Made by a program: the position numbers and the translations under genes
NCBI RefSeq assembly: GCF_002113885.1
Contig: NW_018406089.1
Coordinates: forward strand, 1,745,801 to 1,809,800
Direction: 5' to 3'
DNA: 64,000 nucleotides
From: Mizuhopecten yessoensis
Taxonomy: Eukaryota
The notes under the pieces: generated by a model
The model's database searches: none
The model's input: the letters and a program-made list of their open reading frames with translations, nothing else
What the model was told of the DNA's origin: nothing
Part shown: piece by piece, positions 32,644 through 57,797 of the stretch
How positions within the stretch are numbered: the first letter of the stretch is position 1
Layout: each line of letters starts with the position of its first letter

Positions 32644-32667
32644 CTACATATATACATCATGAATGTG

Positions 32668-34012: not shown

Positions 34013-34689
34013 TACGGGGGAGAATAAGGGCCATGTAGAAGAAAAATGATTTCGTTATAAACTATAAACTTTCCGCATTAAAATGACCTTGATCTAATTT
34101 CAAGGTCACAGGGGTCAAATATGTTAAACAGTTCAAACAACAAATTTTAAAGGACCATACGTGCTAAAGTCATGCGACTTGGATATGTTATGAACACCAG
34201 CAGTGCAAATCTTTTTCCTAATTACAGTAATGAGGTCAAAGGTCAACTTTAAGTGCTAGTCAGGGGTCAAAAGTCTACATTGGTTAAAAGCTTTTAAAAT
34301 TTTCTTCTCAAGTTCCATAAGGCCCAGGGTAATGATATTTGGCCAGTGGGTACCTGGGATGGAATGCTCCTCATAAAAATGACATTGACCTATTTCCAAG
34401 GTCACAGGGGTCAAATATGTTAAAACCTTCAAACAACAATATCTTAAGAACCATTTGGTTTAGAGTCATGATACTTGGGTATGTTATATAGACCAGCTGT
34501 GTGAATCGTTTTCTGTATTACAGTATTGAGGTCAAAGGTCAACTTTAAGTGCTAGCCGGAGTCAGGGTTAAGGGTTGGGTTTAAAAGATTTAAAAATAAA
34601 GTTTCAAATTTCAAACAGCAATATCGTGTTATTTTCACGAAAAAACGAAACTTATTTTTTTCTACATATGACCCTAATGCTCTTCCGTA
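34013..34689. mobile_element. Non-autonomous IS3EU element (TACGG..CCGTA TIRs, 6-bp TSD) with a nested HINE-like fragment
   Basis: GTATCT|TACGGGGGAGAATAAGGGCCATGTAGAA ... TTCTACATATGACCCTAATGCTCTTCCGTA|GTATTT. Confidence 0.75.
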
Positions 34690-35598
34690 GTATTTCGTAG
34701 TAATGAGATCAATTTATCAGATGACATGTGTTGGTTTCTATATATTAAACCGACCGAGGTATATAAGTGCACACTACCCTTGTGATATATAGGAAGTATT
34801 GAAGGAATGGGAAAACATCTGGCACCAAATATTTGTTTCTTCACCAACTTAAAACCCATGAAAAACATCATCATGAAATCAGTATATAGATTGACGCCCC
34901 CTTTCCAATGATCGTGTTCTAGTTTTTATCTGGTAATGCCTACTGCTGTAAATGTTGAGATTAAGTGTCATACTAGAACAAAAGATAAGATTGGAGGAAC
35001 CTACACTAGAATTTTATGGGTAAAACACCGTCTGTGAGACCGAGATGGTTGTGATTTTTGAACTAACGAAAATGGCCGCTACTTTGGACATGTAGATTTA
35101 CTACTACTCAATTTTCAATATCTCATGACATGGCTTTGTTTTGTACATTTAAGTGAATTTTCCTGAAATGAATTTTGTCCCTACAGAAACAAAAGGGAAG
35201 GGTGCCTCTTGAAAATGATCTAAAGACAAAATGCTAACAAAATGCAAGTATGTATATCCGATGATATTGCTTTTCTGATAGACTGTGATGCGAGTCTTTA
35301 CCAGACATAAAACCGGAACTGCGAAGAAATGGGAAATGATCAGATATCAATTCTATGATAACTTACATCGTCGAACGATGTAAACTTCAACAACTTGAAA
35401 AAAAACCACAAAAAGTATTCCAACACAAAACGTATCAAAATATCAGTATGTAGATTGTCGTCCCCTTTCCAAAGGTCGTGACAACTGCTATATATGTATA
35501 TCCTTAGGTTTAGTGTTAACTTGGTACAAAAAGATAAGGCTGAAGTTATAAACTAGCGCAAGCTGCAATAATAAGTCAGTGTCTGTTAGAACGATAAG

Positions 35599-37606
35599 AT
35601 GACCACCATGTTTGTGAATCTCGTACTGATCACATGTTTGACCGGTTCTTTAGGAAATATGGTTGAAAAAGAGCTTGACCCTGATATTCCACCTCTGCTG
35701 TTGCATGTTCTTGACCCTGGCAGCCTGCCGCTATCACAAAGGGACCCAGAACCTGGAACTCCTCCCCTACAACGGCGGGACCTTAAACACGAAAATCCCG
35801 CGCTAAAACGACAGGAAGTTGACCACGGAAATTCACCTCAAGAATGGCAGGACCTTGTCACTTTCGTTAACGAGAAAATTGAAGGTATGGAACGACTACT
35901 AACCGAAAAGGACGAACGCATTGATCAACTGGAATTAAACGTAGCTATTCAGAAGACTGAAATCAAGCAGCTAAAATGGGGGTTGACGTCACTTGAGGAA
36001 GAAGTATCAGAGAAAAATGAAGTTGTCGGCAAATTGGTGGCAAGAGTATCAGCCTTAGAGGGAATGGTGATGTCTGATGCCATTACAAGTGGACGTGACA
36101 CTGTTAGATCTCAGAGGACTGAGAACGAATCTCAAACTGACCTGGTCAAAACTTCGGACTCCAGACCTGGATCTAATGCTGAGAAGATGTTAACCTCACC
36201 ACCTGCTGTTCCTAAAACCTCAAACTATCAAAATGCTAGAACTGTGCTGCCTCGCTTTGAGTATCTCCTGAATAAATCTGACGACGAAGAATATGTTGTA
36301 AACACTGATAACGGGTCCGAAGATTTATCGATAGCGAAGCACTCAAAATTCCAACAAAAACGTAAGTACATATCAGAACAAAATAGACACGATGTGTATG
36401 ATGTTTAACTGATGTCTTCATTATAACTTTAACGTATTACAGCAAATGTAATAATTTAAAGTTAATCTTAAGTGAGTAGTTCGATTATGAAAAGACTTTA
36501 TTTTGTTAATCCAATGTCTTAGCAAATGTATTGTGAATTTAATATAAGGTGTCATATTATGTATTAATCCTTCTAGCCTTATAACGCATTTGATAATCCA
36601 TATAGTCTGCATTACGAAAATTGATAATCCCTGTAGTCTGAACTGCGTAAATTGTTAATTCCTATACACTGTATTACGTAAATTAAAACATGAAAACGTA
36701 AACGAAAATATATTTATGTAAACAAAGACAATAATATAAATTTATTATCAATCTATGTATGCTGTGGATGTTGAATGAGAACCCTTCTGCGTGAGGACAC
36801 CATATTGTTCAGGGGCTGACTCCAGGGCTCCCCAACCCTGGCACCCGTATCAAAATAATTATATATGTATATATATATCTTCTTCGAAGCAGTATATTTA
36901 TATACATATTTATGAAAAAAATGGCTGGGGGAATAAAATATTTGTAAAAAAACAACAACAAAAAACAATGCTGTTGTCTTGTAAATATAAGTGTATTTTA
37001 TGTCAGAATTGAAAGCCCTATGTGATATATATGTCTTATGTTTAAAAGATAAACTATTGGAAACGCATTGCAAATCCATATATATAGCAACAAGGTTATA
37101 CATATTTGACAATGATAAAACAGCACGTTTTGAATTGCTATTATTCATTTGTAATATTTTACCTCTTACATTGTATTGTAGGCGTAACGCCTAAAGCTAC
37201 CATAGCTTTCCACGTTGCTTTGTCCACCAGTAAAGTTGTCACAGAAGACGACGTAGTAGTGTATGATCAGGAGACTCTGGACCAGGGGAATGGATACAAC
37301 CCAAGGGAAGGGCTTTACATTACCCCGGAGTCAGGGACCTACGTCCTCACCTGGACCACTCTTTGTAATGCACATGAAGCAATTCAGACTGTTCTTGTTG
37401 TGAATGGAGCTGTAAAAGGAGTATCGTGGACAGATTCGAATGAGATAAACGATTACCACCAAACTACAGCTGTCGTCGTTCTCACACTGAACCAGGGAGA
37501 TCGTGTCTTCATCCGTTTGGGGCATGCTGATGGACACGGGGCAATAGTGAGTAACAGCGCACAGTATACCGGGATATCAACCTTCTCAGGATGGAAGCTA
37601 GACTGA
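35599..37606 (+). CDS. C1qDC gene 1: secreted coiled-coil + gC1q protein, ~395 aa; exons 35599-36361 and 37182-37606
   Basis: Signal peptide, five 12-aa Pro/Asp repeats, heptad coiled coil, Ser/Thr/acidic linker, phase-1 GTAAGT..TAG intron, gC1q motifs (IAFHVAL, GNGYNPREGLY..PESGTYV, LNQGDRVFI, STFSGWKL); AATAAA at 37612. Confidence 0.93.
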
Positions 37607-37890
37607 GGAATAATAAATGGACATAAATATCAAAATAATTTCTATTTCTGGCTTTGTTACACTTACTCCCGATAAAAAACACACTTACTCCTTATGAAAT
37701 ATTGTTTCTTCTCTTTGGTTCGTTTTACTTATTAGTCAATATCAGCTTCTATCAGTGTCTGGCTAACTGTACGAAGTGTAGATACCTCACAATCAAAACA
37801 GTACAGCTGCCATTGATAGGGTTTGAATGAATCGGGTTAGGAATTACAATGTATGTGCTGTAGCATCATCAATGACAATTCATAACGTAT

Positions 37891-38072
37891 GCGCCGCGGT
37901 GGCTAAGTGGTTAATAGTCTGACTGTCCCTCCACCACTGGGTCACGGGTTCGAGGCCTACGTGAGGTAGGCGCCAGGTACTGACTGTAAGTCGGTGGTTT
38001 ATCTCCGAATCCTGGCACGTCCTTTAATGGCCAAAGATGTTAATAGGACGTTAAACACAAACAAACTAAACC
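37891..38072 (+). mobile_element. tRNA-derived SINE (same family as 3211-3435)
   Basis: A box GGTGGCTAAGTGG, B box GGGTTCGAGGCC, tail GGCACGTCCTTTAATGGCC..GTTAATAGGACGTTAAA. Confidence 0.8.
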
Positions 38073-40072
38073 AGACCATAATTTATGCGATACGCCATAT
38101 TAATTTAATCGATATCTTTGAAAGCATCGGGTAATTATTGACCGCTTCAATCTGGCTTTAAAAGATCGTGTTCGAAAGTTTTAAAAATGCTCAGATTACT
38201 TTTTTTTTTTTTTTGATGGCTAGTTCTAAAAGTTCCAAAACATTTAATGGATTCTACAGCAGTAGATATTAATTTGATTTGGTCGACAGTATAAGGTAAC
38301 TTCTTAAAATTTGTTACTTACATAATAGACAAATATATAGCCCAGCAGGGAAACATGAACTTGGATCTATCAAGATGTTTCGAAGTGTTAAATAATAACG
38401 GTAGAAAGGACTATCTATAGTTTGGCTTCTTATGACCCAAAATCCATCGAAATAAAAAATCTTTAATAGAACTTTCAAATGACTGTTTCTTCAATTTTGA
38501 TTACTTCCCCGGTACTATCATGTAAACATTTATTTGTGTTTCAATTATGGCTGCTATGGTAACCTGTTAATATTTGCATACATTTATTAAGTTTGAACAT
38601 TCAGACAGATTTTCACTTAGAAGGAACTCTTGAACAAACTTTATATTTCTCCTAAAGATGTATTATAGGTGCCTACACATTATCATTACATATTAAGTTT
38701 TTCCAAGCATGCGCTTTATAGTTTCAAGGAGAAAAACTATGCAAAATATGACAATATGCACTCAATATTCTAAATTTTCTAAATTATTCCAATCTGAACT
38801 TGTTGCGATGGCAACAATAACTAGAAAAACAAATAAATACCTTCATGATAGTATTTCGAAAGTATTCAAAATTAAAGAAACAGTCGTTTGACAGTTTATT
38901 TAAAGGTTTTGAATTTTGATGCATGTTGGGGCCAAAACGCACCCAAATCATACATACATGTAGTCCTTTGAAGCAGAACACTAAAATCTATATCTCTGAT
39001 AAGTATGGTATCATTAATGAATGGAAAGTTTTTTCTCAAAGGCTTATATGAGATTCTTAGGTTGACGTGGGTTGTTATATGGGGAAAGGTTTGTTTTATT
39101 ATCTTAGTGAATGAAGCATTAGAAATAAAAACCCATAACGAGCAGAACACACAGACCACGTACCCACTCTCCTCCTTCCTAGAAAAGAGAGATCGAGATA
39201 TTAGGCAATGTTTGATTGTTTTGTGTATTGTTATCAATAACATTAAAGGAGAAAGCGGACAGCTAACAATAACAAGCAGAACACACTGAACACGTACACA
39301 CTTTCCGGATTGTGTTGAATATTTGGGTCAGTCATTCCTTGAATATTAACCGGAAACGTATTATTTCCTTGAGAATAAATAAGTTACTGTTCGATTGTTT
39401 GATAGTAGTTATAAAAACAAAAACAAACAAAAAGGTTATTATTGTCTGCTTAACAAGAAATACATTCACTCTTTTTAAAATATATTAAAGCAATGATGTT
39501 GTAATTTTCTTTCATGGGGTATGAAATGAATTTTTAATGCAAACAGATGGAATCTGCGTAGCGGATTATTTTAAAATTTGAAAAAACAATTATTTTCATA
39601 ATCCGACGAAATTATAAAAAAACCTTCAATGTTTATAATGAATTTCAATAACCTGTCATAAAATGGAGCCATAACAAAAAAAACCCGATCAATTAATTTT
39701 TAATAGTGGCAATTTATTGCGTGCGCAATAATACATAGCGAAAGAAATTCCGAGGGCGTTGCTTTTTTTCTTTCTTTCTTAGAACAATGAAAAGAATTGT
39801 TCGACCAATCAGATTTGAGTATTTAGTATAAAAAACCCAAAGAAAATTCATTATAAATATATATTAACGATTTGTGTTGAACAATATTAACTATAATACT
39901 CACAGTTATTACATAACCCGTTTGTTCCAATCATAATTGAACAATGACTACAAATGAACATAATGAAGACTGAGATAACTGATAAAAACTGTTATTTGAA
40001 TTTTTTTCCGAGATTAACATTTTTTTTAATCGGAAATCGTATGTCAACAACTCCAAGTTGCGTCATGTAATA

Positions 40073-40546
40073 TGCTTCAGTCACATTTGCGCCGGCCGCC
40101 GACCGGTAAGTAGGAATCGGCAGGCTTCCCGGCGTCCCGGGTGCCGGGGACCTTTTTCCGATGACTGGGATTTGCCGTGAGAATAATGGTGACATTAGAT
40201 CCGGGCACCGCATGGCCCCAGCAACCAATTTGCCCGATTTAATCGAACGGACATCTGAAGGATACCGTAGGGAGACCGTCTCAAGGATACCAAAAGACTA
40301 TCTCAAGGATACCACAAGACTATCTCAAGGATACCACAAGGCTATCTGACGATGGCCGGGCTGTCGTACAGTAGCCGGAAGATGTCCGTGTGGCGGGTGG
40401 GATACGTATATAGCCCGTACGGCGTCTAAAAATTGGCCGATAATCTCCCGGCGTCCTTACGGTTCCCTGGCTAGCCGGCCGATTTTGACCAAAAAAAGTA
40501 TCGCCCGGGCGCCTTTTCGGAAATCGGCGCAAATATGACTGAGGTT
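40073..40546. mobile_element. GC-rich non-autonomous TIR element (PIF/Harbinger-like)
   Basis: TIRs CTTCAGTCACATTTGCGCCG / CGGCGCAAATATGACTGAGG; internal 22-bp tandem (CTATCTCAAGGATACCACAAGA). Confidence 0.7.
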
Positions 40547-42416
40547 TAGGCTAAAAAAAGGGTTCCATTCGGGAAATTTCACTCAGTTTTGCTAACTCTA
40601 AAGGAATACATTATGTAGGTTATTGTCAAACGATTTGTCCAAGTTAAGGAAGGTTATCAACTGAATCAGTAACAGGTGAACACGATTTATATAGTCGTCT
40701 GTCAAAGTTGGGATTGATATATGAAGGGAACTAACTCGTACAATTAAGAGAATACAAACACCAGTTGTTAGGCTCGGAGACTGAATGAGCTCGGTGTTCG
40801 TTGATTCTGGGTTAATATCGGCATAATTAACGACACAATTTGAAACAATGCATACTTATTTCAACAAATTAAAGCCACTGCATCATATTTTCGTTCATAC
40901 CCGACTCAGACAATTCAAGGAGGCTGACACATACGGAACGAATTTTCGCTTAAAATGATATTTTCTTATTTAAGTGCGTCCGAATCTTTCTTTCATTGTT
41001 GATGCAAGCGTTAACTAGGAGTTCAAAATGGTGCACGAACGTTTTTATGCTTGTTCTGGTAACCTGAGCACTTCATTAAACTTACATGTAACTTTGTTTC
41101 AGAACCATATCATAATGTGAAATCAATGTATAATGTCAATTATATCAAATAACAATAACTCAAGTTGGACTCAATGCAACTACCAAATATTAGTAGAACC
41201 TTGAAATATAGCGGCTCTCCACTTCGAGCTAGTAAAAAGATGGCTGTCGTAGACTCTCAGCTGAGCCTGCGCACCACGTCTAGACATTAATCTTCCGCGA
41301 TGACGCGTCAGAAAATTTGATATCTTATGTTTTCATCAACAAAAATAAAACATGACATTCAAAATATGTTTTTGTGTTTTGTTTCGACATAATTTGTATA
41401 TTGAACTATCAACGTACACCATCATTTTGTATGATGGTCCTTCAATGGCGAACTATATATTTTAACACTACGTAGAACTGCACAAGCTCCAGAACCTGGG
41501 ACAAACTATCAGAATGGACTTCACAAGTTCCAATTATTGAGAGGGGAAAAAAACGTTGATTGAAATATAAGGTTTGGAACTTGCTTTGGTCGATTTCATG
41601 GGGTGATGAATTGAGTTGACCTTAGAAGTTCATATTGAATTTGTTACACGCATGACAAACTCATTTCATCACCCATTGAAATCGTCATAAGCAAGATTCA
41701 ATCCTTAAACAACATTACCATGTTTTTATACGTATTGGGCATACGCATGGCCACGGGTTTATAGTGACCCGGCAGGATTTTCAGGACTTTTCATATATTG
41801 CTTTAAAGTTTGTAAGTTTTTCTGTCGTTTTACTTTTTCCGAGTGAATGATTTCGTCGTGTCTGGATAAAACCATCGTCAGGACGCGTGAGGCTTTCTGA
41901 GAGTAGGAGCGTGTGTGGTGTTCTCTTCAGTCTCCTCTGGAATTGAAGACATGAAATCAGATGAGATTAATAATTTCTCACCATTATTCAATTTAAACAA
42001 TTACATACCTCTTCATATCTGAGAAGAGTCTGAAAACCCCCATCTTTTACTGTGAATAAACAAAGTTCTATACTGTGATTAACAAAGTTCTATACACGCT
42101 ATATATGCTATGACCTGGTATTTTCCCGATTATCATCATACCAATAATTTTCCCGTATTCTGTTAGTATTTACATATTATACCTAGTATTTTTGTAAAAT
42201 GTTAAATTTCTTTTAGTTCAAACAGTTGTTGTATTCAATACAAAAAATGTAATCCAACTAAAACGTAGGACTTTTATTAGTTCAGAGGCAATGGAACCTG
42301 AATGACCCGAAATAATCGATCACTTTCTCGTGCTATCGAGATATTTCTCCTATATAAACGAAATCCGTATCTTATATTAAACGGAACAAGATATCTCGTA
42401 TTAACGAGATTGCTAT

Positions 42417-42581
42417 CACTGAGGATGATGAAGATGATGTGTGCGCGTTAGTGTGAGTGTTCTTGATGATGAGGATGATGTGTGCGATCAAGTGTGAGTG
42501 TGTCCTTGTGGGTGTCTTTGTCTTATCTGTAATTGCCATAAGTTGTAAAACTTCAACAAATAAAGAACTTGAACTTTAACT
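42417..42581 (+). mobile_element. Short LINE-like 3' end insertion specific to duplication unit 2
   Basis: Absent at the homologous site near 31477; ends AATAAAGAACTTGAACTTTAACTT. Confidence 0.55.
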
Positions 42582-44589
42582 TAATTATAATAACCAGATC
42601 GGGATCCATATGTGTCTTGTTACCGAGATCCGTGACACGTATTAATGAAAACAATATCTTATATATCTCGTACGAATCAGATCAATATCTCGTATTTAAG
42701 ACATCTCTATCTCGTATTACCGAGGGACGTACTTCGATATGACGAAATCGATTTCTCGTATTATCACTGATATCAGTGTGTCGAATAATACAGCTAACTA
42801 CAGTGTATCTCGTAATATTGAGGTCCACATCTCGGTATAATGAGATTCAGATTGTGTGTTAACGAGACCGAAATCTCGTATAAACGAGATAGAAAGTACA
42901 TTTAATAGGAAAGTACACGTTATGTTAAATGGCCGGTGCATTTGTCCATAGATTATATAGACTGAGGTACAAGTCTTAAATGAATACTATTCTGGTGCTA
43001 TACCGGAAGTACAAAAGGATCGGAGAAATAACAGATATAAATCATACTTTTACTAACATCGTCGAACGAAATATATTTCACCAGCTGAACAAAACAGCGA
43101 CAGAGCGTATTAAATTTACAAATACCGTGCTCTGGTTCTTAACTTTTCATGACTTCTTTTTAATATGTATATCCTGAGGTTAGTGCCAACATGGTACTGA
43201 AGAAGCTAAAATAAATCCTGTACAGGTAGACATGTGTCTGTGTGACCGATAAGAGGGCGCGATACTTCTGAATTTACGGCTTGCATTCCCGGTACTCTTG
43301 GACATACAGTGGCGTGTCATCTTAAAGTCGCAGACAAACAATAGATGACCATACCGAGATTCCAACCCTGGACCCTCCCTTCGAACTCTAGACGTATGCT
43401 CTACCCATTAAGCTTACTACTCGCCGGCAAACGACCCAGTCCAGTTCCGCTACACTCCCCGTTCTGTTTATAAGTTTTTATCCTGGATAACAACACCATA
43501 TAATACCAAGGTCTTTCAAAGTATTCACCAAGTACTGTTAACAAAGGTCGGTAGTTGGTCCCATGGTAACAAGAGATAAAAAAAAAATACACGGCCGGAC
43601 CGTGACTCGAACCCGGGACCCTCCACAATCTAGACGGACGTTCTCCCAAATGAGCTGATCCAGTTCAGTTCAGCTCCGCTACATATATACATGCATGTGT
43701 AGCTCACATTGAATGCGTTAAAAATGTTTAAAACTGCTTCTTCCGAGTAACCAAAAGGCCTTGGGTAATGATATTCGCTCGACAACAAGCTCAGATGAAG
43801 AGCTACCAAGTTTGCTCAAATAAATGACCTTCTCCATTACCCATGATCGAAGGAGTCAGATGAATGAAAATCATAAAATGACTTATTTTGAATAAACTAC
43901 AGGCCTAAGGCGCTAGGACAAATGGGTATCAAGGTTGTGTCAATAAATGACCTTCACTCATATTCAAATTCACATGGGTCAAATGTGTTGGATAAATTGA
44001 AACGACGTATTTTGACTAACGAAAAGACCAATGGTAATATCATTTAGCAAGTAGAATGCTGTGACGAAGATATTTCAAAATTGTTTAAATGAATTACTTT
44101 CATATATTAAAATCAAAAGGACAATGGTTAGTTAAGTTGAAGAATTAAAGAGTCAGATGTAATGAAAATATTAAAACAACTTCTCTGTACAATTCAAAGG
44201 CCTAAGGTAAGGAGAGCACAAGATGATAATATATGGCGAGCATTTTCCAGTTAATCTTTCTGATGTAAATTGCAATGCCGCTGAAACAAACATTAATTGT
44301 TTCTTGAAAAATAATTTTCTGCTGTTTACCTGATAATATTTTCATATAATTCTGTTAAGTGTTTTTTCAAGATAAGGCACTTAAACAAAAATATAATTGA
44401 ATCCTTAAAAAATAATTTTCTAATGTTTCTCTGATAGTATTTTCAAAATATTCCGTTAAGTGATTTTCAAGATAAGACAAGTTAAAATGTAATCTCGGAA
44501 TTAAATATTAACAATAAGATTGCGGTAAAATAAATACAAACAAACAAATAACTACAAATCCTCCAACATAAACCTCAAGATCAGTATCT

Positions 44590-45500
44590 TACGGAAGAGA
44601 AAAAGGGCCATGTAGAAAAAACAACATTATTTCGTTTTAAGCTCACCTGGCCCGAAGGGGTCCGTCCGTCATTTTTTTTCTTTTGAACGACTTCTTCTGA
44701 AGAATTGGATGACCTAGGGTCACGACATTTAACCAGTAGGTACGTGGGATAGGGTGCTATAAAGTTTCCTCATTAAAATGGTATTGACTTACTTTCATGG
44801 TCAAATATGTTAAACAATTCAAACAAAAATATCCTAAGAATCATTTGGACAAGAGTCATGATATTTGGATTCGTATGTACACTATCAGTGTAAATCTTTT
44901 TCTTCATTACAGTAATGGGGTCAAAGGACAATTTTAAGTGTAAGTCAGAGGTCAAAGGTCAACATGGGTTAAAAGATTTAACAATCTTCTTCTCAAGTTC
45001 CATAAGGCCAAGGGTCATGCTATTTGACAAGTGGGTACCTGGGATGGAGTGCTCCACATTAAAATGGTCTTGACCTACTTTCAAGGTCACAGGGGTCAAA
45101 TATGTTAAAAACTTCCAACAACAATATCTTAAGAACCATTTGGTTTAGAGTCATGATACTTGGGTATATTACATTGTACATGTATACCAGCTGTGTGAAT
45201 CGTTTTCTTTATTAGAGTAACGAGGTCAAAGGTAAACTTAAAGTGCTAGCCGGAGTCAGGGTTAAGGGTTTGGGTTAAAAGCTTTATAAATAAAATTTCA
45301 AATTTCAAACAACAATATCTAAGAGCCGTTTAAGAGATGTTAAAATATGTCTTAGCACGAACCTTTCTGATGATAACTTGAAGTTTCAAGATAATAACTC
45401 GAAATTTCGACTTCCTAACTTAAATTTCAAGAAAATATCTCGAAATTTCGAAATCTCGAAACTTATTTATTTTCTACATGGCCCTAAATGCTCTTCCGTA
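44590..45500. mobile_element. Non-autonomous IS3EU element (paralog of 34013-34689) with a nested HINE-like MITE
   Basis: GTATCT|TACGGAAGAGAAAAAGGGCCATGTAGAA ... TTCTACATGGCCCTAAATGCTCTTCCGTA|GTATTT; CTCGAAATTTCGA subterminal palindromes; nested element starts TTTAAGCTCACCTGGCCCGAAGGG. Confidence 0.8.
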
Positions 45501-46440
45501 GTATTTCGTATTAATGAAATCAAATTATCAGGTGACATGTGTTGGTTTCCATATATTAATCCGACCGAGGTACCAGTCTATATACACGTGTATTCTACCC
45601 ATGTGATATATCGGAAGTATTAAAGGAATGGGAAAACATCTGGCACTAAATATTTGTTTATTTACATTTTAAAACGATGTAATCATCACCAACTTAAAAC
45701 CTATGAAAAACATCAACATGAATTGTAGAAAACATATCAGTATATAGATTGACGCCCCCTTTCCAATGATCGTGTTCTAGTTTTTATCTGGTCTTGCCTA
45801 CTGCTGTAAATGTTGAGATTAAGTGTCATACTGGTACAAAAGATAAGATTGGAGGAACCTACACTAGAATTGTGTGGGTAAAACACCGTCTGTGAGACCG
45901 AGGTGATTGTGAATTTTGAACTGACACATATTTCAGGCGTTCTTTATGAAAATTTGACAAAAAATTTACACAAAACCTGTTTGACTGAAATATCTTGAAA
46001 ATGACCTAAAAAAAATAATGTTTACAAAATGCAGAAAGTACGTAATATAGTGGGAAAATACGCTTGTGACCGTAAATTTGGCTCAAGTTTGTATACCCGA
46101 AGATATTGGTGTTTTTTCTGATAGACTGTGATGCGGGACTATACCAGACATAAAACCGGAAGTACAATGGAATGGGAAATGATCAGATATCAATTCTATG
46201 ATAACTTACATCGTCGAACGATGTAAACTTCAACAACTTAAAAAAACCACACGAAAAGTATTCCAACACAAAACGTATCAAAATATCAGTATGTAGATTG
46301 TCGTCCCCTTTCCAAAGGTCGTGACAACTGCTTTATATGTATATCCTTAGGTTTACTGTCAACTTGGTACAAAAGATAAGACTAAAGTTATAAATTAGGG
46401 CAAGTTGCAAAAATAAGTCAGTGTCTGTTTGAACGACAAG

Positions 46441-48120
46441 ATGACCACCATGCTTGTGATTCTTGTACTGATCATATGTTTGACCAGTTCTTTAGGAAAT
46501 AAGGTTAGAAATGAGCTTGATCCTGATATTCCTTCTCTGCTGTTGCATGACCTTGACTCTGGCAGCCCGCCGCTAACACAGAAGGACCTTAAACACGACA
46601 TTCACCTTCAACAATGGCAAGACCTTGTCACTTTCGTTTACAGGAAAATTGAAGATATGGAACGACATCTGACTGAAAAGGACGAACGCATTGACCAACT
46701 AGAATTAAACATCGCTAGTCAGATGACTAAAATTAAGCAGCTGAAACGGGGGATGACGTCACTTGAGAAAGAAGTATCAGAGAAAAATGAAGTTGTCGGC
46801 AAATTGTTGGCAAGAGTATCAGACTTAGAGGGACTTGTGATGTCTGATGCCATTACAAGTGAACGTGACACTGTTAGATCTCAGAGGACTGAAAACGAAT
46901 CTCAAACTGACCTTGTTCAAACTTCGGACTCCAGACCTGGATCTAGTGTTAAGAAGATGTTTACCTCCCAACATTTCGTTCCTAAAACCTCAAACTATCA
47001 AAATACTAGCACTGTGCTGCCTCAATTTAATGATCTCGTGAATAAATCTGACGAGGATGAATCTGTTGTGTACACTGATAACGGGTCCGAAGATTTATCG
47101 ATAGCGAAGCACTCAAGATTCCAACAAAAACGTAAGTACATATCCGAACAAAATAGACACGATGTGTATGATGTTTAACTGATGTCTTCATTATAACTCT
47201 AACGTATAAAAGCAAATGTAAGTATTTAAAGTTAGTATTAAGTGAGTAGTTTGATCATGTCAAAAATCCTATGTCTTAACAAATGTATTGTGAATTTAAT
47301 ATAAAGTGTCTTATATTATTATGCAATAATCTTTGTAGCCTTATAACGCATTTGACAATCCCTATAGTCTGAACTACGTAAATTGTTAATTCCTATACTC
47401 TGTATTACGTAATTTGAAACATGGTAAACGTAAACGAAGATATGTTGGTGTAAACACAGACAATAATATAAACATATCAATCTATGTGTGGTTTTTTAAT
47501 TTAAATATAAGGGTATTTTATGTCCGAATTGAAAGCCCTATGTAATATATATGTCTTATGTTTAAAAAATAAACTATTGTTAACTCATTGCAAAGCCAAA
47601 TATAGAGCAGCAAGGTTATACATATTTGACAATGATAAAACAACACGTTTTGAATTACTGTTATTCATCTGTAATATGTTATCTCTTACATTGTATTGTA
47701 GGCGTAACGCCTAAAGCTACCATAGCTTTCCACGTAGCTTTGTCCTCGAATAAAGATGTCACAATAGACGTAGTAGTAGTGTATGATTTGGAGACTCTGG
47801 ACCAGGGGAATGGATACAACCCAAGGGAAGGGTTCTACACCGTCCCGGAGTCTGGAACCTACGTCCTCACCTGGACCACTATTTGTTATGTACACAATGA
47901 ATTCCAGACTGTCCTTGTGGTGAATGGGGCTGTAAGAGGGTCATCATGGACGGATGCTTTAGGGGTAAACGATTTACATCAAACTACAGCTATCGTCGTC
48001 CTCACACTGAATCAGGGAGATCGTGTCTTCATCCGTATGGGACATACGCATGGACACGGGATAATATTGAGTCAAAGCGAATTTGGACAGTCTACCTTCT
48101 CAGGATGGAAGCTTGAGTGA
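46441..48120 (+). CDS. C1qDC gene 2, ~369 aa; exons 46441-47131 and 47702-48120
   Basis: Same architecture as gene 1 with three 12-aa repeats; phase-1 intron; intact gC1q; AATAAA at 48161. Confidence 0.93.
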
Positions 48121-49050
48121 GAGATGGGGCAAAATGACGTAATTCATTTGCCTAAATGCTAATAAATGTGTTCCTACTTATTTGTTCTTTTTAACAATCA
48201 GACAGACACTCAACATATATTTAATCTCTCTTTGACGTAGTGGATGATATTTCTGCCAGTATTTGACGAAATGTGTGTGGAAGTTGAATTTTATTTTCTT
48301 AAATGTTGTATACTTATACCAGCTTATACTATTTATCAAATTATATGAGATACATGTATATCAATTATTGTTTGACTAACTGTATAAGCGATTTCAATCA
48401 GTGTTTTGCTAACTGTATACTCAATTTCAATCAGTGTTTTGCTAACTGTATGAAATACTTAAATCAGTAATTGGCTTACTGAATGAGATGCAGATACTAG
48501 AATAAACCCCAGTACAGCATTAATTATCATACGGAAAAGTGCCGAAATGTTTGCCCAAACAAGCATCTGACTTTGACGCCTAGAATGGAGTATAATATAG
48601 CCTGCATTTGGAATTACAGTCTCTAGGCTACAACATAATGTTTGACACTTTATAATATATATATGTATTCAGAATTCTTATGAAAATTATTTTATAAAGT
48701 TTTCGATTTTTTTTCTTAATAAGATAAATCTCAGACAAAACAAAGGGGGCCACTGCATTAGATGTGGACAGTATGAAGTATAATTATACCGATGTTAAGA
48801 ATGTTATCCCAATAGATAACCCACATGTCTTTCAAGGTTTTTTTCTCGCGAAAACGAATAACGGCAAAGGATTATAAACCAAAGACACTGAAATAATTGT
48901 TTACAAGTAACATCGACCTAGATCAGCTGTCGCCGAGCAGAACGCACAGAACACTTACACCATCTTCTGGTTTTTGTTGCGTCTATTTTGGAAGAAAGCC
49001 ATCGAGTTATTTCCTTCAAAACAGATAAGGCACTATTTTAATGTTGTAAA

Positions 49051-49338
49051 GTGGGAAGAAATTTTCGACACGCCAAAAAGAACATCAGAACAGTCTACTC
49101 TAGAAATACGCGGAAGACATCCGAAAAAACAATAAATAAATCAGCTATAACAGACCATGTTAATATATACAACCACATCATAGACTGGAACAACTCCAAT
49201 TTGCTTGAAAGGGAGGACAACTGGAAATGTAGGAAAATAAAAGAATCCATTTGGATTAAGAGGGAATGTAAAGCAATGAACAAAGACGAAGGGGTCACCA
49301 GCTGCATCATCTTTATGACCCATTTTAACATTCACTAA
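49051..49338 (+). mobile_element. Penelope-like element remnant (GIY-YIG endonuclease C-terminus)
   Basis: KSAITDHV...NHIIDWNN..LLEREDNWKCRKIKESIWIK...MNKDEG matches the characteristic PLE endonuclease C-terminal signature. Confidence 0.75.
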
Positions 49339-50047
49339 GGGGCCGGAAGGGGTTCACATGTAACCCGTCCTGCCAGCTGTATTAGAGTGCTTTGTAGATG
49401 AAATTTCTTGACATTTTCTGACGGGTAACTTTACTTATTCTGCACATTGAGGCTCGGCGAGTTGTTTTCAGCGGTTTAGGTTTGAGACACCGGTCATTTT
49501 CGAAAGCTTGCAAAACAAATCATTATCATCATATGATATACACATTTGATATAACGACCTATCTGCATTTAAAACAAACTTTAACATTTAATGTAAATAA
49601 TAATATTCACAGGATTTACATATTCCATTTTTTTACATCGCTTTTGGGTTTATGATATCAGGTATAGCGATTTCTGGAAAAAACGACTACAATTAGAATC
49701 AAAACGACTGAGTTAATTGTATTTAGCTGTCCATGGTAAGCCAATTGTAATACAGAATTAAATGAATGGGAAAACATCTGGTATTACATATATGTCTACT
49801 TTAATCGTTCGACAATGTTAACTTCACTAACTTGAAAATTACAAAAATAATTTCAATACAAAACGTAGTAAAACATCAGTACGTAGATAGTCGCTCCCGT
49901 TTCCAAAGATCGTGTTTTGTTCATCTAGCCGTGACAACCTGCTATATATGTATATATCCTTAGGTTTAGTGTCAATCAGGTACAAAAGATAAGACTGAAG
50001 AAATACATACGCTTCAGCTTTCATAGTAAGTCATTGTCTGTTTGAAC

Positions 50048-53000
50048 GACCACCACGCTTGTCAATTTCGTGCTGACCATATATATGTTTGACCGGTACC
50101 TTAGGACATATGGTTAGAGAAGAGATTGACCCTGACATTCCAACTTTGCCGTTGCATGACCTTGACACTGGCAGCCAGCCGCTAAAATAAAAGGATATAG
50201 AGCCTAAAATTCATCCCCTACAATGGCAGGATCTTAAACACGAAAATCCGGCGCTAAAACGACGGAACGTTGACCGTGGAAATCCACATAAACAATGGCA
50301 GGATCTTGTTACTATCGTTTACCGGAAATTGAAGGTATGGAACGACTTTTGACCGAAAAGGACGAACGCATTGACAAACTGGAATTAAACATCACTAGTC
50401 ATATGACCGAAAGTAATCAGCTAAAACGGGGGATGACGCCACTCGAGCAAATGGTCGTAGAGAAGAACGAAGTTATCAACAGGTTGGTGACGAGAGTAGC
50501 AGACTTTGAGCGGGGTGTTTATCGTCGTCAAAGTGCCCAATATTGCAAAACAAACGTAAGTACATATCCCGCAAAAAATAACAATAAATATACACAATAA
50601 ATGATGTTTATCTTCCGTAAGCAATATGATGGTCACATAGTGTTACCTTTGTTGGCATCATTTTCAGTAGCATGATACAAAATTGATATAGTAGTCCTAA
50701 TATTTATATATTTATATATAAGACATAAAGTTATACATGAAAATGAAAGAAACCCGTAATGTTATCAAAGACGAAGCTAGAGTAAAATATAAACGAAGTA
50801 TACATTAAAACGAAGACCCAAGTAAAATGCAAAATAATAAGACCCGATCAGAAATGAAATGAAGTTTTAGTGTGCAAAATATTTCTCCGGAAACGGAACA
50901 CTCATGGGAAAGTGCGTTAAATTTGCGTGCAAAAATAGATACAAAATTATTTTTTTTATGTCAAAGAACGATCTTTCATCGTTATTCGCTGATGAATATT
51001 GTTACATGGGCAGCTTTATTTTGGAAAAATTACAAAAATGTATCATATTATACGAGCGCTATTTACTTTAATTCATTTTCAGAAGCCTGATTTTTCAAAA
51101 CCAATGCAACATTGTAGAGCATGCCAGAATCTCATTGAATGTTTGAAATATTTCAAAGATATGTATCTTTTTGCTAACATAGATAGTTTATAACAAATTC
51201 TATTTCATTTGCGATGTAACGTCACTTTTCATTGTTTATAACCAAATAATAACGAAAGGAGTTATTTTCCAACGAACCATGCTCTTCCAAAAGCATTGCC
51301 TGCTAGTTTCATTTGTAGAATCAGGGTACCCGCATTTAATTTTGTGTGTATTTGAATTGTTTTGCTATTTTCAAGTAAACCTGTAGAATGTATAAATTAC
51401 CGCGAACGTTACTTGAAATAGTTTTTAACTCTGTCAAGTGCTTATTTTATGTGATGGAGAGCGATGTCGATGTTTGGGTGGATTTAATTGATGGAAATAA
51501 ATACCAGGTATAAATCATGACGTCAGTGTTAATTGTTTATCGTCTGTGGACAAAATTACAAGTGAAAATGAAAAATCTTTACAAAATACATGTATATCCA
51601 GGTTAAATAGACAAAATAGGACAACTGCCCACAAGCTTACACGTGAGAAACACGCGCATCCTGTTGTGAAACAACGATATAAAGTGATCAAGTGACAGAA
51701 CAGCCTAATTTGAATAATTAGGTGATGTAGGTCACCTTGCTTATCGCCGGCGAATGGACACTTGAGTAGACACAAAAAAGACTTTATTACATTTGACTTG
51801 GGAGAAAAGATATAATGAACATAGTTAGGTTTGTAGAAATTTTGAGAAAATAGTAAAACAAATGTGTTTCCAAATAATCGTTGACTATTTCTTAAATGCT
51901 ATCCAAATACAAACGTGTCCTTTCAGAGTAGATTACAATTATGTTTTGGATTCTTTTCACAGAACCAAGCTCCAGAGATATCACTTTGCAACAGAAAGGA
52001 AACAAGAGTACCGCGGGGCGGAACAATATACGTCCGTCGAATGCCATATTGTTTTATATACTTTCTTACATTGAAATAAGATCTGCATCATTCAAAGAGT
52101 GGTTGGTTAGCTGACATGCTATAAAAATGTAGGATAAAATTTCAGGATAAAAAATCAAATACTGAAATGAACAAAGGGCAATAACTTTTGAAAATATCGT
52201 TGAATCAAAATTCTTTTCAAGGAAACACAACTTCATATCATGATTATTGAGCCTACTAAGTGTTTAAGAGATCCGTTGAAAAATGTAGGAGGAGATTGCC
52301 GGACAAAAATCCAATACTGAAATGAACAAAGGGCAATAACTTTTGAAAATATCGTTGAATCAAAATTCTTTTCAAGGAAACACAACTTCATATCATGATT
52401 ATTGAGCCTACTAAGTGTTTAAGAGATCCGTTGAAAAATGTAGGAGGAGATTGCCGGACAAAAATCCAATACTGAAATGAACAAAGGGCAATTACTTAAA
52501 AAAAAAGTCAAATCAAAATTCTTTTCAAGGAAAGACAACTTCATATCATGATTATAATGTATACCAAGTTTCAAAGAGATCCGTTGAAAAATGTAGGAGG
52601 AGATTGCCGGACAAAAATCCAATACTGAAATGAACAAAGGGCAATTACTTAAAAAAAAAATGTCAAATAAAAATTCTTTTCAAGGAAAGACAACTTCATA
52701 TCATGATTATAATGTATACCAAGTTTCAAAGAGATCCGTTGAAAAATGTAGGAGGAGATTGCCGGACAAAAATTAAATACTGGCAATAGCATTTGGAAAA
52801 ATTGTTAAATCAAAATTCTTTTCAGGGAGACACAATTTCATATCATGATTATAATGTATACCAAGTTTCAAAGAGATCGATCGAAAAATGTAGGAGGAGA
52901 TTGCCGGACAAACAAAAGTTTACGCCGGGCGACCGGGCGGCCGGACGGACGGACAACCCCATACCATAATACTCCCGTTAAATTTGACGGGCGTATAAAA

Positions 53001-53857
53001 AGGCTTCTATATTTTCATTAGAAGTTAACAAACAGTACCGCAAGTAATAATGTGGCATACAATACGCTAATACTTGCCCTTAAATGTCCCTTCTGGGTTC
53101 ACTGATGATAGTCTGAGTTTTGAAACTTTGAGGGTAACTGATTAATTCTTAAAGTATTATAATTGTTCTTACGTAAATTGTTTTAAAATTTATGTTACGG
53201 GGTACATGATCAATAATATGATGTAAATTTTAGTATGATGGTATTTTCATAATTTTGTGCAATTTTAATATAGTCTTCTGATATGTAAGTATAATAGTAT
53301 TACACGAAGGTGTTGTGAATCAGAAACAAATATCATATTGAATGCGACACATTACCAATTGAAGTATTTGTGCAAAACTAGCTAGATTGGAACCATAATC
53401 AAATAGCTCTTATATATAATATTTTAATGTAGGTGTCGCCCCGAATGCAAAAACTTCCATAGTTTTCCACGTAGCCATGTCGAGCAGTAAAGCAGTTACT
53501 CCGGATAGCGCAGTGATATATGACCACGAGACGCTGAACAGTGGAGATGGATACAATACAGAGACCGGACTTTACACCGTCCCGGAGTCAGGCCTCTGCG
53601 TCCTCACATGGACCACGATTTGTGAAATAAATGACGCATTCCAGACTGTGCTTGTTGTGGATGAAGCTGTTAGAGGATCATCATGGACAGATGCAAACAA
53701 GACCGTCGAATACCACCAAACTACAGCTGTCGTTGTCTTCACACTGAACCCGGGAGATCATGTCTTTATCCGTATGGGACATGCGTATGGACACGGGAGG
53801 ATAGTGAGTCAAAGCTATATCGGGATATCAACCATCTCAGGATGGAAGCTTGACTAA
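50048..53857 (+). pseudogene. C1qDC gene 3: disrupted exon 1 (~50048-50555) and intact gC1q exon (53433-53857)
   Basis: Both start ATGs lost (GAACGACCACCACG vs GAACGACAAGATGACCACCATG), TAA at 50188-50190, 1-bp deletion near 50327, linker largely deleted. Exon 2 is open from its TAG acceptor to TAA. Confidence 0.85.
52130..53001. mobile_element. HINE/DINE-1-like (Helentron-associated) MITE with ~5 internal ~155-bp tandem repeats
   Basis: Repeat starts at 52158, 52313, 52468, 52621, ~52776, followed by a (GGAC)n microsatellite, hairpin CCCGTT..GACGGG and terminal GTATAAAAA. Confidence 0.8.
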
Positions 53858-54881
53858 AGAATAATTTATTTACAGACTTTTGCGTCGGTAGTAAATTACT
53901 CATACTGCTAATACAATGTATGAGATACTTCAGTATTAGTCGTAGGTTGTATATGGCTGTCTAACGTAAAACAGTATTTAATAAAGAGAGCGTATTTGAC
54001 TCATTCGATAACTGTCCAATCGGAATTAGTGGAAGGGAACTAACTCTAACACTACGCGACAATAAGAACCAGTTTTATTGTTCAGAGACCGAACTGCTCA
54101 CGTCCATATTTAGTTAAACGGCCAGTGTTCCATGGCCGAGGATCTTGCGTTGTTGCCGGGTAAATATATGCATGATAAACGATATATTTCAAAACAAAAT
54201 CAATAACATCTATTTCACGTTCTCACCTCCTAAAGTCAATAAGTTCACCATATTAAAGCCACAACAACCCTTTTTCGTTTATAACCGCCCAAGTCAATCC
54301 AGTGATGTGAGGGAATGATTTCTACACTTAAGATGATGTTGCGGTTATTATGGGTGTATACGACTCGTTCTTCCAGTGTTTATGCCACTGTTAATCGGAA
54401 GTTCACGCACGAATTGTTTACCTCAGTGTAGTTGTTCTTGTTCTAGACACCTGAGCACTCCATTTCATATCATTTTGTTTTAGTATCATATAACAGTGTG
54501 AAATCAACATATAATGTCAATTTTATCAAATGACATAATTTAAAGTATACATAGCAATACTACATTGTATAACAATCAAATTACACGACATTAAGGAGAC
54601 GGATTTACATAAGTACTATGTACTTGTTTCTTGATCCTTTTCTGTATTTATAACCATGTACTATTGTAATTAAACATCATTAAAATAAAGTTTAAACTAA
54701 ATTACACGACATAATAAAATTATCGTATTTAAAATAGTGTAAGCAGCTGTTCATATTATAACAACGCCATAACCCGACGAAATAGTAGAATAGTGATGGT
54801 AGCCTATGATATATAAATAAAAACATACTTTTTAAAGTGCAGACACTGTATATCATTAAAGTCATTGCTACAAGACAACTA

Positions 54882-55085
54882 CTGTATACCGGAAAATGTT
54901 CGCCCAATCAAACTTTCGCCCTTCGCCCATAAAATCATTTCCCCCAAGCATTAACTTCGCTCTTTACATTTAATCACTATTTATTTCATTAAGTTTTTTA
55001 TATGCTGTAATGATAAATTTGCCATCATGACCGAGGGCGAAATAAGGCGAAAGTTATACTGCAGCGAAAATTTCCCGGTGTACAG
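54882..55085. mobile_element. Tc1/mariner-like MITE with TA TSD
   Basis: TA|CTGTATACCGGAAAATGTTCGC ... GCGAAAATTTCCCGGTGTACAG|TA. Confidence 0.8.
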
Positions 55086-55247
55086 TATGTCTTTCCATAT
55101 CAACAGATATCGTCAAAATTCAGATTGATTACTCCCTTGTCTAGCCTTGACCGCTGCTATCGTCGTTATAAGGTAAAACTGGTACAAATGATAAGATAAG
55201 AGAAACGTAGGTTTAAACTGTACATGTAAACAAGTGTGAAGGATAGG

Positions 55248-57797
55248 ATGGCCGCCATGCTTGAGAAATTCGTACTTGTCATATATGTGACCGGTACTTT
55301 CGGACATATGATAACAAACCAGCCTGACGCCGGGAACCCATCCCTAAAGTCGCATGGCTTTGATCCTGATAACCCGCCTCTAACTCAGAGGCACCTGGAC
55401 CCCGATATTCCACTTCAACAATGGCAGGACCTTGTAACCTTTGTAAACGAGAACATTAAGGGTATGAAACAACTATTGACAAAAAAGGACGAGCAAATAG
55501 ATCTACTAATATTAAACATAGCCGGTCAGACGACTGAAATCCAGCAGCTTAAACAGGGGGTGACGTCAGTTGAGAAAGAATTATCACAGAACGATGAAAT
55601 TGTCGACACACTATTGGCAAGAATATCAGACTTAGAGAGAATCGTAATATCTGATACCACCCCAAGTGAACGTGAATCGAGGCAAAATATTAGATCTCAA
55701 CTTCCTAGAACTTACCACAAAAATAGACTTGGATTAGGTAAATCCTTTGACTCTAAATCTGGATCTTCTGTTAAGAAAATGTCTGCCGCACAACTCCCCA
55801 TTCCGGAATCCACTAACCATCAAAATGTTAGTATCATGCCGACTCACTCTAAACCTCGCATCGAAAATGACAATGAACGTGTCCTGAATCAATCCGACGA
55901 GGAAGAAACTGTTGCACAAAACGAGAACGAGTCGACATCAAAGATATCGAGATTCCAACACAAAGGTAAGAACACTATAAATAATGTGATAAATACGAAG
56001 CATTATCAAAATGTGTCCTGTGAACTTTGTTCAGTCTAATTAGAGAAAATGTTAATAGCATTTCATATTTTAGTAGATTCAATAAAAAATGAGTAGTGTT
56101 AGTAGGCATGGCATTCATTTTACTTCATGGTCCCCTTACATGTACCATAGTCGACAACTCTAACTATACTTTGGACACTTTCTATCGCCATGATTATAGC
56201 TTTGATATATCATTTCTGAAAGAAAATTCATCCTTATGAAGGATTTGAACACTAGCCCTCCAATTATTATAATGTCTCTCTAACTAACTATAGTACATGA
56301 TCAACGATTTGACCCTTATCCAATCGCACTTCAGTTATATCCTAATTGAAGTTAAGGAAGGGCTTTTTTATGTACAAAAACTCAATTGTCTTGTGTGTTT
56401 TACCTTAAGTCGGACTGGAATCGTTATTTAAGAAAACTAAGGTATATTGTAATATGTTCGTTTCACTTCTCCTTTCCGGTCATTTTTGTCTATACATGCA
56501 ACAGTTACTTTTTTCAATCCAGGAGGTAAAGCTAACGTAAAAGGTACCAAATGTAAACATAAGATTTCTCAAAAGTTTGGAAGAAAATTCGTCAGTTTTG
56601 ACCAAAATAAGTGCGAATTAAATAATCATATCACCCGTTTTTGAAACGAACCTGTAAGCATAATTTACACAAAACTGGTTATAATATAAGATAAAGCAAT
56701 GTTTGTTATATAATGATAACGCTGTATTCGTGTAAAGTTGAGAATAAAGCTGTATGCAAATAATGTCACTATATATTTGTGTTATCGTCTTTTAGGAAAT
56801 AGAAGTACCACAGGGACCTCAGAAATGGTTACAGCTATTTGTAGACATAAACTGAGGTAATCAAAGTGATATTTCATGTTTTAGGTTTTTGGAACAACCT
56901 CGGTAAAAATGCCACCCAAAATTATGATATATACAAGAAGGGGGAAAGGCTCTCAATTTCAAAAAATCGAACCCACCTAAAGGTTTAGTTGGTGTACAAA
57001 CAATCTTTTGTACCATTGACAAGATTGGTAATTCTTTTCATTAAGAAACCTTCTACTTCCGCAGACTGACTCTTCGTTTACTCCGACATCACACACCATT
57101 TCGATCTTTCAAAGCTGCCGCAGTCAAAGAGCCACCTTTTCCATATGCATCAGGTTAACGCCATGCTCAAACATCTAGATCTAGGTCCCTTGGTCCAAAT
57201 ATAGCTGTAACAAATTATCATGTCCCCGTGAACGGTATTGTGCAAACACGTTTATTAGGTTCAAAGTCATAAATATAGTATATGCCTAAGTATTGCTAGT
57301 AATATCACTCCTAACGCATTGGGATAACATCACTAGCATACCACTGTAAAGTCTTTTGTTGTATTGTAGGATCTACGACGCCTTCTGCTCGGCAAACCAT
57401 TGCGTTCCACGTGGTCCTCTCCAAGGACAATTTTGTTTCTAATGATGACGTAGTAGTGTATGATAACGAGACGCTGGACATTGGATACGGATACAACCCG
57501 AGGAACGGGGTGTACGTAGTACCGGAGGCAGGCACCTACGTCTTCACGTGGACGTCTATCTGCTACGGACAAGAAGAATTGCAAACAGTTCTGGTGGTTA
57601 ATTCAGCCGTGCGAGGATCATCATGGACAGATTCTGAGTTGTCAAAAGACATCCATCAAACTACAGCTGTTGTCGTCCTCACACTAAACCAGAGAGATCA
57701 TGTCTTCATCCGTATGGGGCCTCTCTATGGGCACGGGGTGTTGCTGAGTCGAACCGACGTGGCAGTGTCTACCTTCTCAGGATGGAAACTTGATTGA
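55248..57797 (+). CDS. C1qDC gene 4, ~381 aa; exons 55248-55965 and 57370-57797
   Basis: Signal peptide, three 12-aa repeats, coiled coil, linker, phase-1 GTAAGA..TAG intron, intact gC1q ending STFSGWKLD. Confidence 0.92.

What the first reader, a model, noticed from the sequence alone, without database searches (positions are those of the whole stretch)
35599..57797. C1qDC array with mosaic ancestry: (A-B)x2 layout overwritten by recent homogenisation
Genes 1 and 2 share highly similar upstream DNA, intron and 5' part of exon 2, yet other markers pair 1 with 3 and 2 with 4. These markers are: N-terminal repeat number (5,3,5,3); GSSVKKM and LQQWQ in 2 and 4; 3' exon-2 tracts TACCACCAAACT and CGGGATATCAACC (1,3) versus CATCAAACT and GTCTACCTTC (2,4); and a downstream block shared by genes 1 (~40700-41160) and 3 (~54010-54540). 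This implies gene conversion or unequal crossover shuffling segments among immune-recognition paralogs.
Basis: partly seen in the sequence, partly recalled or inferred. Interest (0 to 1): 0.7.

Follow-up and report, generated by a model that had tools for sequence, protein, structure and literature searches.

The report
Hybrid scallop C1q lectin gene
In a scallop cluster of C1q-domain genes (likely immune lectins), two neighbours share a 7-kb front end at about 90% identity that stops inside the C1q head, so one of them, most likely the first, is a hybrid probably made by recombination between copies, an ordinary event in such clusters.

Summary
The mosaic is real; the (A-B)x2 pairing of genes 2 and 4 is not supported. 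The window holds four two-exon C1qDC paralogs (gene 3 is a pseudogene). A fifth, broken copy (g0) lies about 87 kb away. Genes 1 and 2 share a 7.3-kb block at 88-92% identity. It ends inside exon 2 near 37313, where identity drops to 79%, then to 60% in the 3' flank (permutation p=0.001). Synonymous divergence doubles too (p=0.002), which argues against selection alone. With g0 included, one tree is rejected (0 of 1000 simulations); with the four window genes alone it is not (p=0.11). After the break gene 1 groups with gene 3 (93%), while gene 2 resembles g0, not gene 4. Gene 4 is an old lineage with orthologues in three other scallop genera. The (2,4) markers are ancestral states, and the downstream block also follows g0. 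Best reading: gene 1 is an anti-Lepore-like fusion, gene-2-type front and gene-3-like C1q head. Genes 1 and 2 occur in runs of two studies; gene 1 appears spliced. Known mechanism, new instance. The scan's notes held no C1qDC case, only similar chimeric arrays in other families.

The parts
30013..35598 (+). U1: upstream block duplicated with U2
   Evidence: blastn and alignment, 88.8% identity over 3997 aligned columns from 30970 on
31171..32080 (+). Low-divergence tract inside U1/U2, candidate later conversion tract
   Evidence: 31 of 796 clean columns differ (3.9%) against 8-14% elsewhere; permutation p=0.0005; only two close copies found in the genome
31905..32234 (+). Relic gene start (promoter and signal-peptide remnant); copy at 43002-43271
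   Evidence: sensitive blastn to starts of genes 2 and 4
35599..36361 (+). Gene 1 exon 1: predicted signal peptide, five 12-aa repeats, coiled-coil-like region, linker
   Evidence: translation; matches P0002/LOC110450864
37182..37606 (+). Gene 1 exon 2, gC1q domain
   Evidence: Pfam PF00386 E=2.9e-16; model pLDDT 88.5; spliced joint in two RNA-guess runs
37296..37376 (+). Breakpoint interval in gene 1 (best 37313, just after 43 bases identical in genes 1 and 2, 37270-37312)
   Evidence: LRT 22.3, permutation p=0.001; alignment; informative sites
40640..41170 (+). Downstream block, low-copy, also after gene 3 and g0
   Evidence: 3 matches in the genome; z=26-46
41466..41712 (.). High-copy palindromic repeat (MITE-like)
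   Evidence: 78 matches from 40 scored of 552 candidates, both orientations
41719..41781 (+). Relic R: fragment of the 3' end of another C1q exon 2, closest to g0
   Evidence: E=7e-7 to g0; 46 of 60 bases to g0, 42 to genes 2 and 3, 38 to gene 4, 37 to gene 1
41776..46440 (+). U2: upstream block of gene 2, with relic starts at 43002-43271 and 45612-45964
46441..47131 (+). Gene 2 exon 1, three repeats
   Evidence: P0001/LOC110450870
47702..48120 (+). Gene 2 exon 2, gC1q domain; 3' part and flank closest to g0
50049..50555 (+). Gene 3 exon 1, pseudogene: a start-codon-position ATG reads ACG, 4-bp insertion, in-frame TAA at 50188, 1-bp frameshift near 50325, linker deleted
53433..53857 (+). Gene 3 exon 2, open gC1q frame
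53990..54545 (+). Downstream block after gene 3
55248..55965 (+). Gene 4 exon 1, three repeats
   Evidence: P0008/LOC110450872
57370..57797 (+). Gene 4 exon 2; old lineage with orthologues in other scallops

Best explanation
Gene 1 is most likely a fusion gene: its 5.6 kb of upstream DNA, exon 1, intron and first ~43 residues of exon 2 are about 90% identical to gene 2, while the rest of its C1q head and its downstream DNA likely come from an older, gene-3-like paralog. SHOWN: the identity step, its position, the change of tree across it. INFERRED: one homology-directed exchange at the conserved G-x-Y motif region of the head, right after 43 identical bases. The geometry fits an anti-Lepore-type unequal crossover between an upstream paralog and gene 2, followed by loss of the intact upstream parent; a long conversion or template-switch copy would look the same. 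A later ~0.9-kb conversion probably refreshed part of the shared upstream DNA. Predicted consequence (untested): a secreted C1q-like type II lectin with gene 2's promoter, signal peptide and coiled coil but a different head (about 70% of its residues, 6 of 8 listed strands and part of a seventh). The array as a whole is ordinary birth-and-death: three intact genes, two pseudogenes, several relics.
For: Step in gene 1/gene 2 identity: LRT 22.3, p=0.001. Synonymous differences 27/185 before and 23/71 after, Fisher p=0.002, while in all 9 other pairs synonymous divergence is equal or lower after the break. Quartet g0,1,2,3: 28 of 34 informative sites pair 1+2 before, 13 of 20 pair 1+3/0+2 after; max-chi p=0.002; 0 of 1000 single-tree simulations reach it. 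AU tests on five genes: the 5' part rejects the best 3' tree (p=4e-5); the 3' part rejects two of the three trees holding 1+2 (p=0.034, 0.036) and barely keeps the third (0.071). With 10 outgroup paralogs, 1+3 has 93% support after the break and 1+2 has 98% before it. At 10 of those 13 sites genes 1+3 hold the rarer state. Direction: without gene 2 the conflict across exon 2 stays (p=0.002), without gene 1 it goes (p=0.33); the intron end of genes 1/2 is homologous to g0 (z=4.5, 8.5), not to gene 3 or 4, and gene 2's 3' flank matches g0 (z=17.9), so gene 2 is g0-like on both sides. Both genes are in DNA runs of two studies.
Against: The four window genes alone do not reject one tree. Raw identity after the break is a tie: gene 1 is 79-80% to both gene 2 and gene 3, and no closer donor was found in the assembly. 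Gene 1's immediate 3' flank does not align with gene 3's (z=0.2) and aligns weakly with gene 2's (z=4.7). No remnant of the lost upstream parent was found in window 1-30012 or in five neighbouring 10-kb loci (about 36 kb left of the window not read). Four sites after the break still pair 1+2. Protein trees do not resolve genes 0-3. The direction tests were chosen after seeing the data and rest on two pseudogenes. In exon 1 the repeats ally genes 1 and 2 with gene 3, not g0, so older exchanges blur the picture.
Confidence: 0.62

Rival explanations
1. Gene 2 is the hybrid: a copy of gene 1's front end replaced the front of a g0-like gene, and gene 1 is whole.
For: The shared block begins almost exactly where relic R is cut off (41776-41781), as an insertion junction would. 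Genes 1 and 3 share the 5-repeat N-terminus and the downstream block as well as the 3' exon. Promoter/signal segment: 1-3 81.5% against 1-g0 77.4%.
Against: Removing gene 2 leaves the conflict, removing gene 1 does not. The shared intron end and first part of exon 2 are g0-like, as is gene 2's 3' end. The first 10 shared bases look like R's own end, which would make U2 the native copy (weak).
Confidence: 0.2
2. One reading: an old (A-B) pair was duplicated to give (1,2)(3,4), and the front of gene 2 or 1 was then homogenised.
For: 1+3 affinity after the break; block after genes 1 and 3; 3' flanks of 2 and 4 align (z=9.8); the tree with 1+3 and 2+4 is not rejected on the 3' exon (AU p=0.455). 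A unit gene-block-next gene recurs three times (g0, gene 1, gene 3).
Against: Gene 4 is in a 100% cross-genus clade without gene 2; after the break 2-g0 is 83.3% and 2-4 is 74.3%; the flank of g0 also aligns with gene 4 (z=6.6) and far better with gene 2 (z=17.9); the (2,4) markers are ancestral states; relic R, in the B position after gene 1, is least like genes 1 and 4.
Confidence: 0.08
3. No exchange: genes 1 and 2 are a plain tandem duplicate whose heads diverged fast under diversifying selection.
For: Episodic positive selection on C1qDC heads is reported in oyster clusters (PMC6835236 section 2.4); pN also doubles after the break (0.084-0.112 to 0.171).
Against: Synonymous divergence doubles and the non-coding 3' flank falls to 60% while the intron stays at 89.5%; 0 of 1000 single-tree simulations with gamma rates match.
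Confidence: 0.06
4. Assembly artefact: genes 1 and 2 are two haplotypes or a misjoin.
For: The assembly has 82,659 contigs; the 43 identical bases at the break cannot be phased by short contigs, and the DNA contig starts only 30 bases before 37313.
Against: Runs X1 and X6 (two studies) each hold gene 1's 37283-37956 with 0 differences and gene 2's exon 1 and intron; gene 2's region is held at 0.92-0.96 by 10 runs of 3 studies. Swapping the phase would still leave two similar fronts joined to two dissimilar heads.
Confidence: 0.04

Closest known systems
Bivalve C1qDC tandem clusters, sC1q-like type II (Gerdol, Greco, Pallavicini 2019, PMC6835236; abstract, 10 passages and section 2.4 read)
   Same: Two-exon secreted genes with coiled coil plus C-terminal gC1q, in tandem clusters attributed to unequal crossing-over.
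   Different: That paper treats whole-gene duplication in oyster; its main text has 0 occurrences of 'conversion', 'chimeric' or 'yessoensis'. Here the duplicated block ends inside the gC1q exon.
[quoted passage not shown] 2014, PMC4041002; abstract and 12 passages read)
   Same: Fusion gene with the promoter and 5' part of the downstream paralog and the 3' part of another, lying upstream of the intact donor; parental genes are often deleted afterwards; conversion can give the same pattern.
   Different: Unrelated family; here the upstream parent is not found, no orthologous cluster was available at DNA level, and expression consequences are untested.
C1q/TNF-fold globular heads: cerebellin-1, C1QL1-3, C1q chains
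   Same: Gene 1 exon 2 matches 22 distinct PDB sequences; the model is an all-beta domain.
   Different: No collagen tail; ligand unknown.

Membership tests
C1qDC, sC1q-like type II | C-terminal gC1q domain | tested here: met
   PF00386 above gathering score in 4 of 4; PDB matches; pLDDT 88.5 model
C1qDC, sC1q-like type II | Coiled coil before the domain, no collagen tail | tested here: inconclusive
   No Gly-X-Y run in the translations; only sub-threshold coiled-coil Pfam hits in gene 1 and none in genes 2 and 4; no coiled-coil predictor was run
C1qDC, sC1q-like type II | Signal peptide | not tested
   Hydrophobic N-terminus seen by eye; no predictor run
C1qDC, sC1q-like type II | Lectin-like or immune recognition activity | not testable with these tools
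   Inferred from family knowledge (PMC6835236 abstract)
Anti-Lepore-type fusion gene | 5' part and upstream DNA from the downstream paralog, 3' part from another paralog | tested here: met
   direction about 3:1 in my estimate
Anti-Lepore-type fusion gene | Junction in homologous sequence | tested here: met
   Break at homologous exon-2 positions after 43 identical bases
Anti-Lepore-type fusion gene | Intact 3'-donor parent and a second copy of the spacer upstream | tested here: not met
   None found; needs a later deletion, which PMC4041002 reports as typical, or a different mechanism. So it works like an anti-Lepore fusion; membership by mechanism is not shown
(A-B)x2 duplicated pair array | Genes 1+3 sisters in unconverted parts | tested here: met
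   93% after the break
(A-B)x2 duplicated pair array | Genes 2+4 sisters in unconverted parts | tested here: not met
   not formally rejected by AU on 288 columns
Ongoing population-level shuffling or copy-number variation | Alternative arrangements among individuals | tested here: inconclusive
   Two DNA runs of contigs, 36950-48400 only; no gene 1/gene 2 DNA joint among 15 shown of 81 joints

The most novel reading that the evidence does not exclude
Bivalve C1qDC arrays diversify recognition by repeatedly swapping most of the C1q head at its conserved motif while keeping a shared promoter and oligomerisation stalk, so gene 1 is one product of a recurring head-swap route that is still variable among scallops.
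Probability: 0.15. Interest if true: 0.55.

Novelty: new member of a known kind. Interest (0 to 1): 0.27.

Why it matters
The C1qDC expansion in bivalves is explained as whole-gene tandem duplication plus point-mutation selection. A crossover inside the head exon gives a new head on an existing promoter and stalk in one step, and it biases trees and selection tests on these clusters. My searches found no paper on conversion in scallop C1qDC genes (0 papers; 1 general review, listing only; none of the 20 listed held 'C1qDC'), but subscription journals are largely missing from that library. One old event in one cluster is what the known mechanism predicts, so the interest is modest.

Tried and rejected
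Looked for a transposon spanning either left junction to fix the direction: the repeats end before both junctions. Looked for a close donor of gene 1's 3' end in the genome: best 79-80%. Looked for a leftover parent left of 30013: none. Protein trees of half-domains: genes 0-3 unresolved. The RNA joint 47131 to 37182 was considered as a chimeric transcript and rejected: gene 1's exon 1 lay outside the laid stretch and the contigs carry the gene 1 letter at 47117. No run was on record as RNA; X11 and X13 are guesses (no RNA holder listed). Lack of DNA contig cover at 48028-48400 in X1 is no evidence. In the coiled-coil segment 6 of 10 informative sites pair genes 1 and 4, but a tree with 1+2 is not rejected (p=0.088); not pursued. 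Five quartets were tested; only p=0.002 survives correction for five, p=0.018 does not. Left out of trees: g0's second start (g0b), the partial or broken copies in L008, L013, L014 and second copies in L002, L005, L011. No complex was predicted, since binding is not claimed. Supplements of the two papers were not read. The scan's notes had nothing near this place.
Full report
WHAT IS THERE. The region holds four same-strand, two-exon genes with a C-terminal C1q domain. Genes 1, 2 and 4 translate to 395, 369 and 381 aa and match database proteins labelled LOC110450864, LOC110450870 and LOC110450872 of Mizuhopecten yessoensis. Gene 3 is a pseudogene: ACG where genes 1 and 2 have an ATG, a 4-bp insertion, an in-frame TAA, a 1-bp frameshift and a deleted linker. 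A genome search found a fifth paralog, g0, on the same contig and opposite strand, about 87 kb from gene 1. It is also broken and has two successive starts. Other relatives on other contigs served as outgroups.

THE SHARED BLOCK. Self-comparison shows a duplication of 30013-37310 with 41776-47830. Identity is 88.8% upstream, 92.1% next to the start, 88.0% in exon 1, 89.5% in the intron and 91.5% in the first 130 nt of exon 2. It then falls to 79.3% in the rest of exon 2 and 60% in the 3' flank. The best break is at 37313 (interval 37296-37376; LRT 22.3; permutation p=0.001), right after 43 identical bases. Synonymous differences rise from 27/185 to 23/71 (p=0.002). In the 9 other pairs they stay equal or fall across the same point. 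Faster evolution of the head therefore does not explain the step.

TREE CONFLICT. For the four window genes the informative sites shift from 27:7:7 (12|34, 13|24, 14|23) to 3:7:4. That is p=0.012 at the chosen split but p=0.11 when the split is searched for, and AU tests keep all three trees on both sides. With g0 the signal is clear: quartet g0,1,2,3 shifts from 2:4:28 to 3:13:4 (p=0.002) and 0 of 1000 single-tree simulations reach it. With ten outgroup paralogs, 1+2 has 98% support before the break and 1+3 has 93% after it; 2+g0 has only 47% and 2+4 does not appear.

The (1,3) tracts hold up: at 10 of 13 sites that split 1+3 from 0+2, genes 1 and 3 carry the rarer state, five of them in the CGGGATATCA tract. 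The (2,4) markers do not: they are ancestral states or lie where gene 3 has a deletion. Repeat number is 5,3,5,3, but gene 2's third unit keeps the start of unit 4 of genes 1 and 3, so its three units likely arose by separate deletions. The downstream block has three copies in the genome search, after genes 1, 3 and g0, and is not detected after genes 2 and 4. Gene 4 forms a 100% clade with four proteins from Pecten, Argopecten and Ylistrum, so it is older than the gene 1/2 duplication and is not gene 2's twin.

WHICH GENE IS THE HYBRID. Dropping gene 1 removes the conflict across exon 2 (p=0.33); dropping gene 2 does not (p=0.002). The intron end shared by genes 1 and 2 aligns with g0's (z=8.5 and 4.5) and not with those of genes 3 or 4, and gene 2's 3' flank aligns with g0's (z=17.9). 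Gene 2 is thus g0-like on both sides, and gene 1 changes allegiance. Against this: gene 1's near flank does not match gene 3's, raw identities after the break are tied, and the shared block starts at the cut end of a 60-bp exon-2 relic at 41719-41781, which could mark an insertion of U2. I put the direction at about 3:1.

MECHANISM (inferred). A fusion with the downstream gene's promoter and 5' part, placed upstream of that gene, is the anti-Lepore geometry (PMC4041002, abstract and passages). The upstream parent and its spacer are not found, so a later deletion is needed; that paper reports such loss as typical and notes that conversion gives the same pattern. A 7.3-kb conversion or template switch cannot be excluded. 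A 0.9-kb tract at 31171-32080 with 3.9% divergence (p=0.0005) suggests a later conversion, though local constraint is possible. On the predicted fold (pLDDT 88.5) the break falls near residue 44 of 140, so the first strand is gene-2-type and the strands from 51 on are gene-3-like. That this changes ligand choice is a prediction.

IS IT REAL. Two DNA runs of different studies each hold gene 1's 37283-37956 without differences and gene 2's exon 1 and intron. Two runs guessed to be RNA show the exon 1-exon 2 joint with gene 1's letter, and contigs over gene 2's exons. Contigs cannot phase the 43 identical bases, but either phase leaves two similar fronts on two dissimilar heads. Copy-number variation was not testable.

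COMPARISON AND VERDICT. Tandem C1qDC clusters made by unequal crossing-over are established in oyster (PMC6835236; abstract, passages, section 2.4). My searches found no report of a chimeric or converted C1qDC gene in scallops (listings only except where stated), within a library that lacks most subscription journals. This is one well-supported chimeric paralog in a birth-and-death array: a new instance of a textbook process. Interest 0.27.

Noticed in passing
L001:6640-4576 (minus strand; G000 C2762 near 1.695 Mb): g0 pseudogene has two successive promoter/signal-peptide starts, about 7 N-terminal repeats after the second, a TAA in exon 1 and a 12-bp deletion in exon 2; it may itself be mosaic.
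   Followed up: partly
L001:2459-2257: A gene-4-like start remnant follows g0's downstream block, repeating the order gene 3-block-gene 4 (69%).
   Followed up: partly
window:31905-32234, 34862-34916, 43002-43271, 45612-45964: Two decayed gene starts in each copy of the upstream block, signs of further lost paralogs.
   Followed up: partly
window:46919-47100: An RNA-guess contig of X13 differs from gene 2 at 4 places; two of them appear to be gene 1's letter. One contig at depth 6: allele, small conversion or error.
   Followed up: no
window:8313-12756: Satellite of a 41-bp unit, 108 copies, 98% matches.
   Followed up: no
window:13945-16615: Compound 20/60/72-bp tandem repeats giving long open frames on the minus strand, probably by chance.
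   Followed up: no
window:5439-5912 (minus): Open frame that looks like an ETS-domain transcription factor exon (recognised from memory, not searched).
   Followed up: no
window:1052-1669 (minus): Open frame resembling a transposon-derived integrase-like protein (from memory, not searched).
   Followed up: no
window:52123-52912: 155-bp tandem repeat, 5.2 copies, in gene 3's intron.
   Followed up: no
window:60365-61108 (minus): Exon of a neighbouring gene with a hydrophobic, transmembrane-like stretch and a basic low-complexity tail.
   Followed up: no
L002-L006: Related type II-like C1q genes on C3383, C5575 and C2920 also sit in small clusters with broken copies; not tested for mosaics.
   Followed up: no
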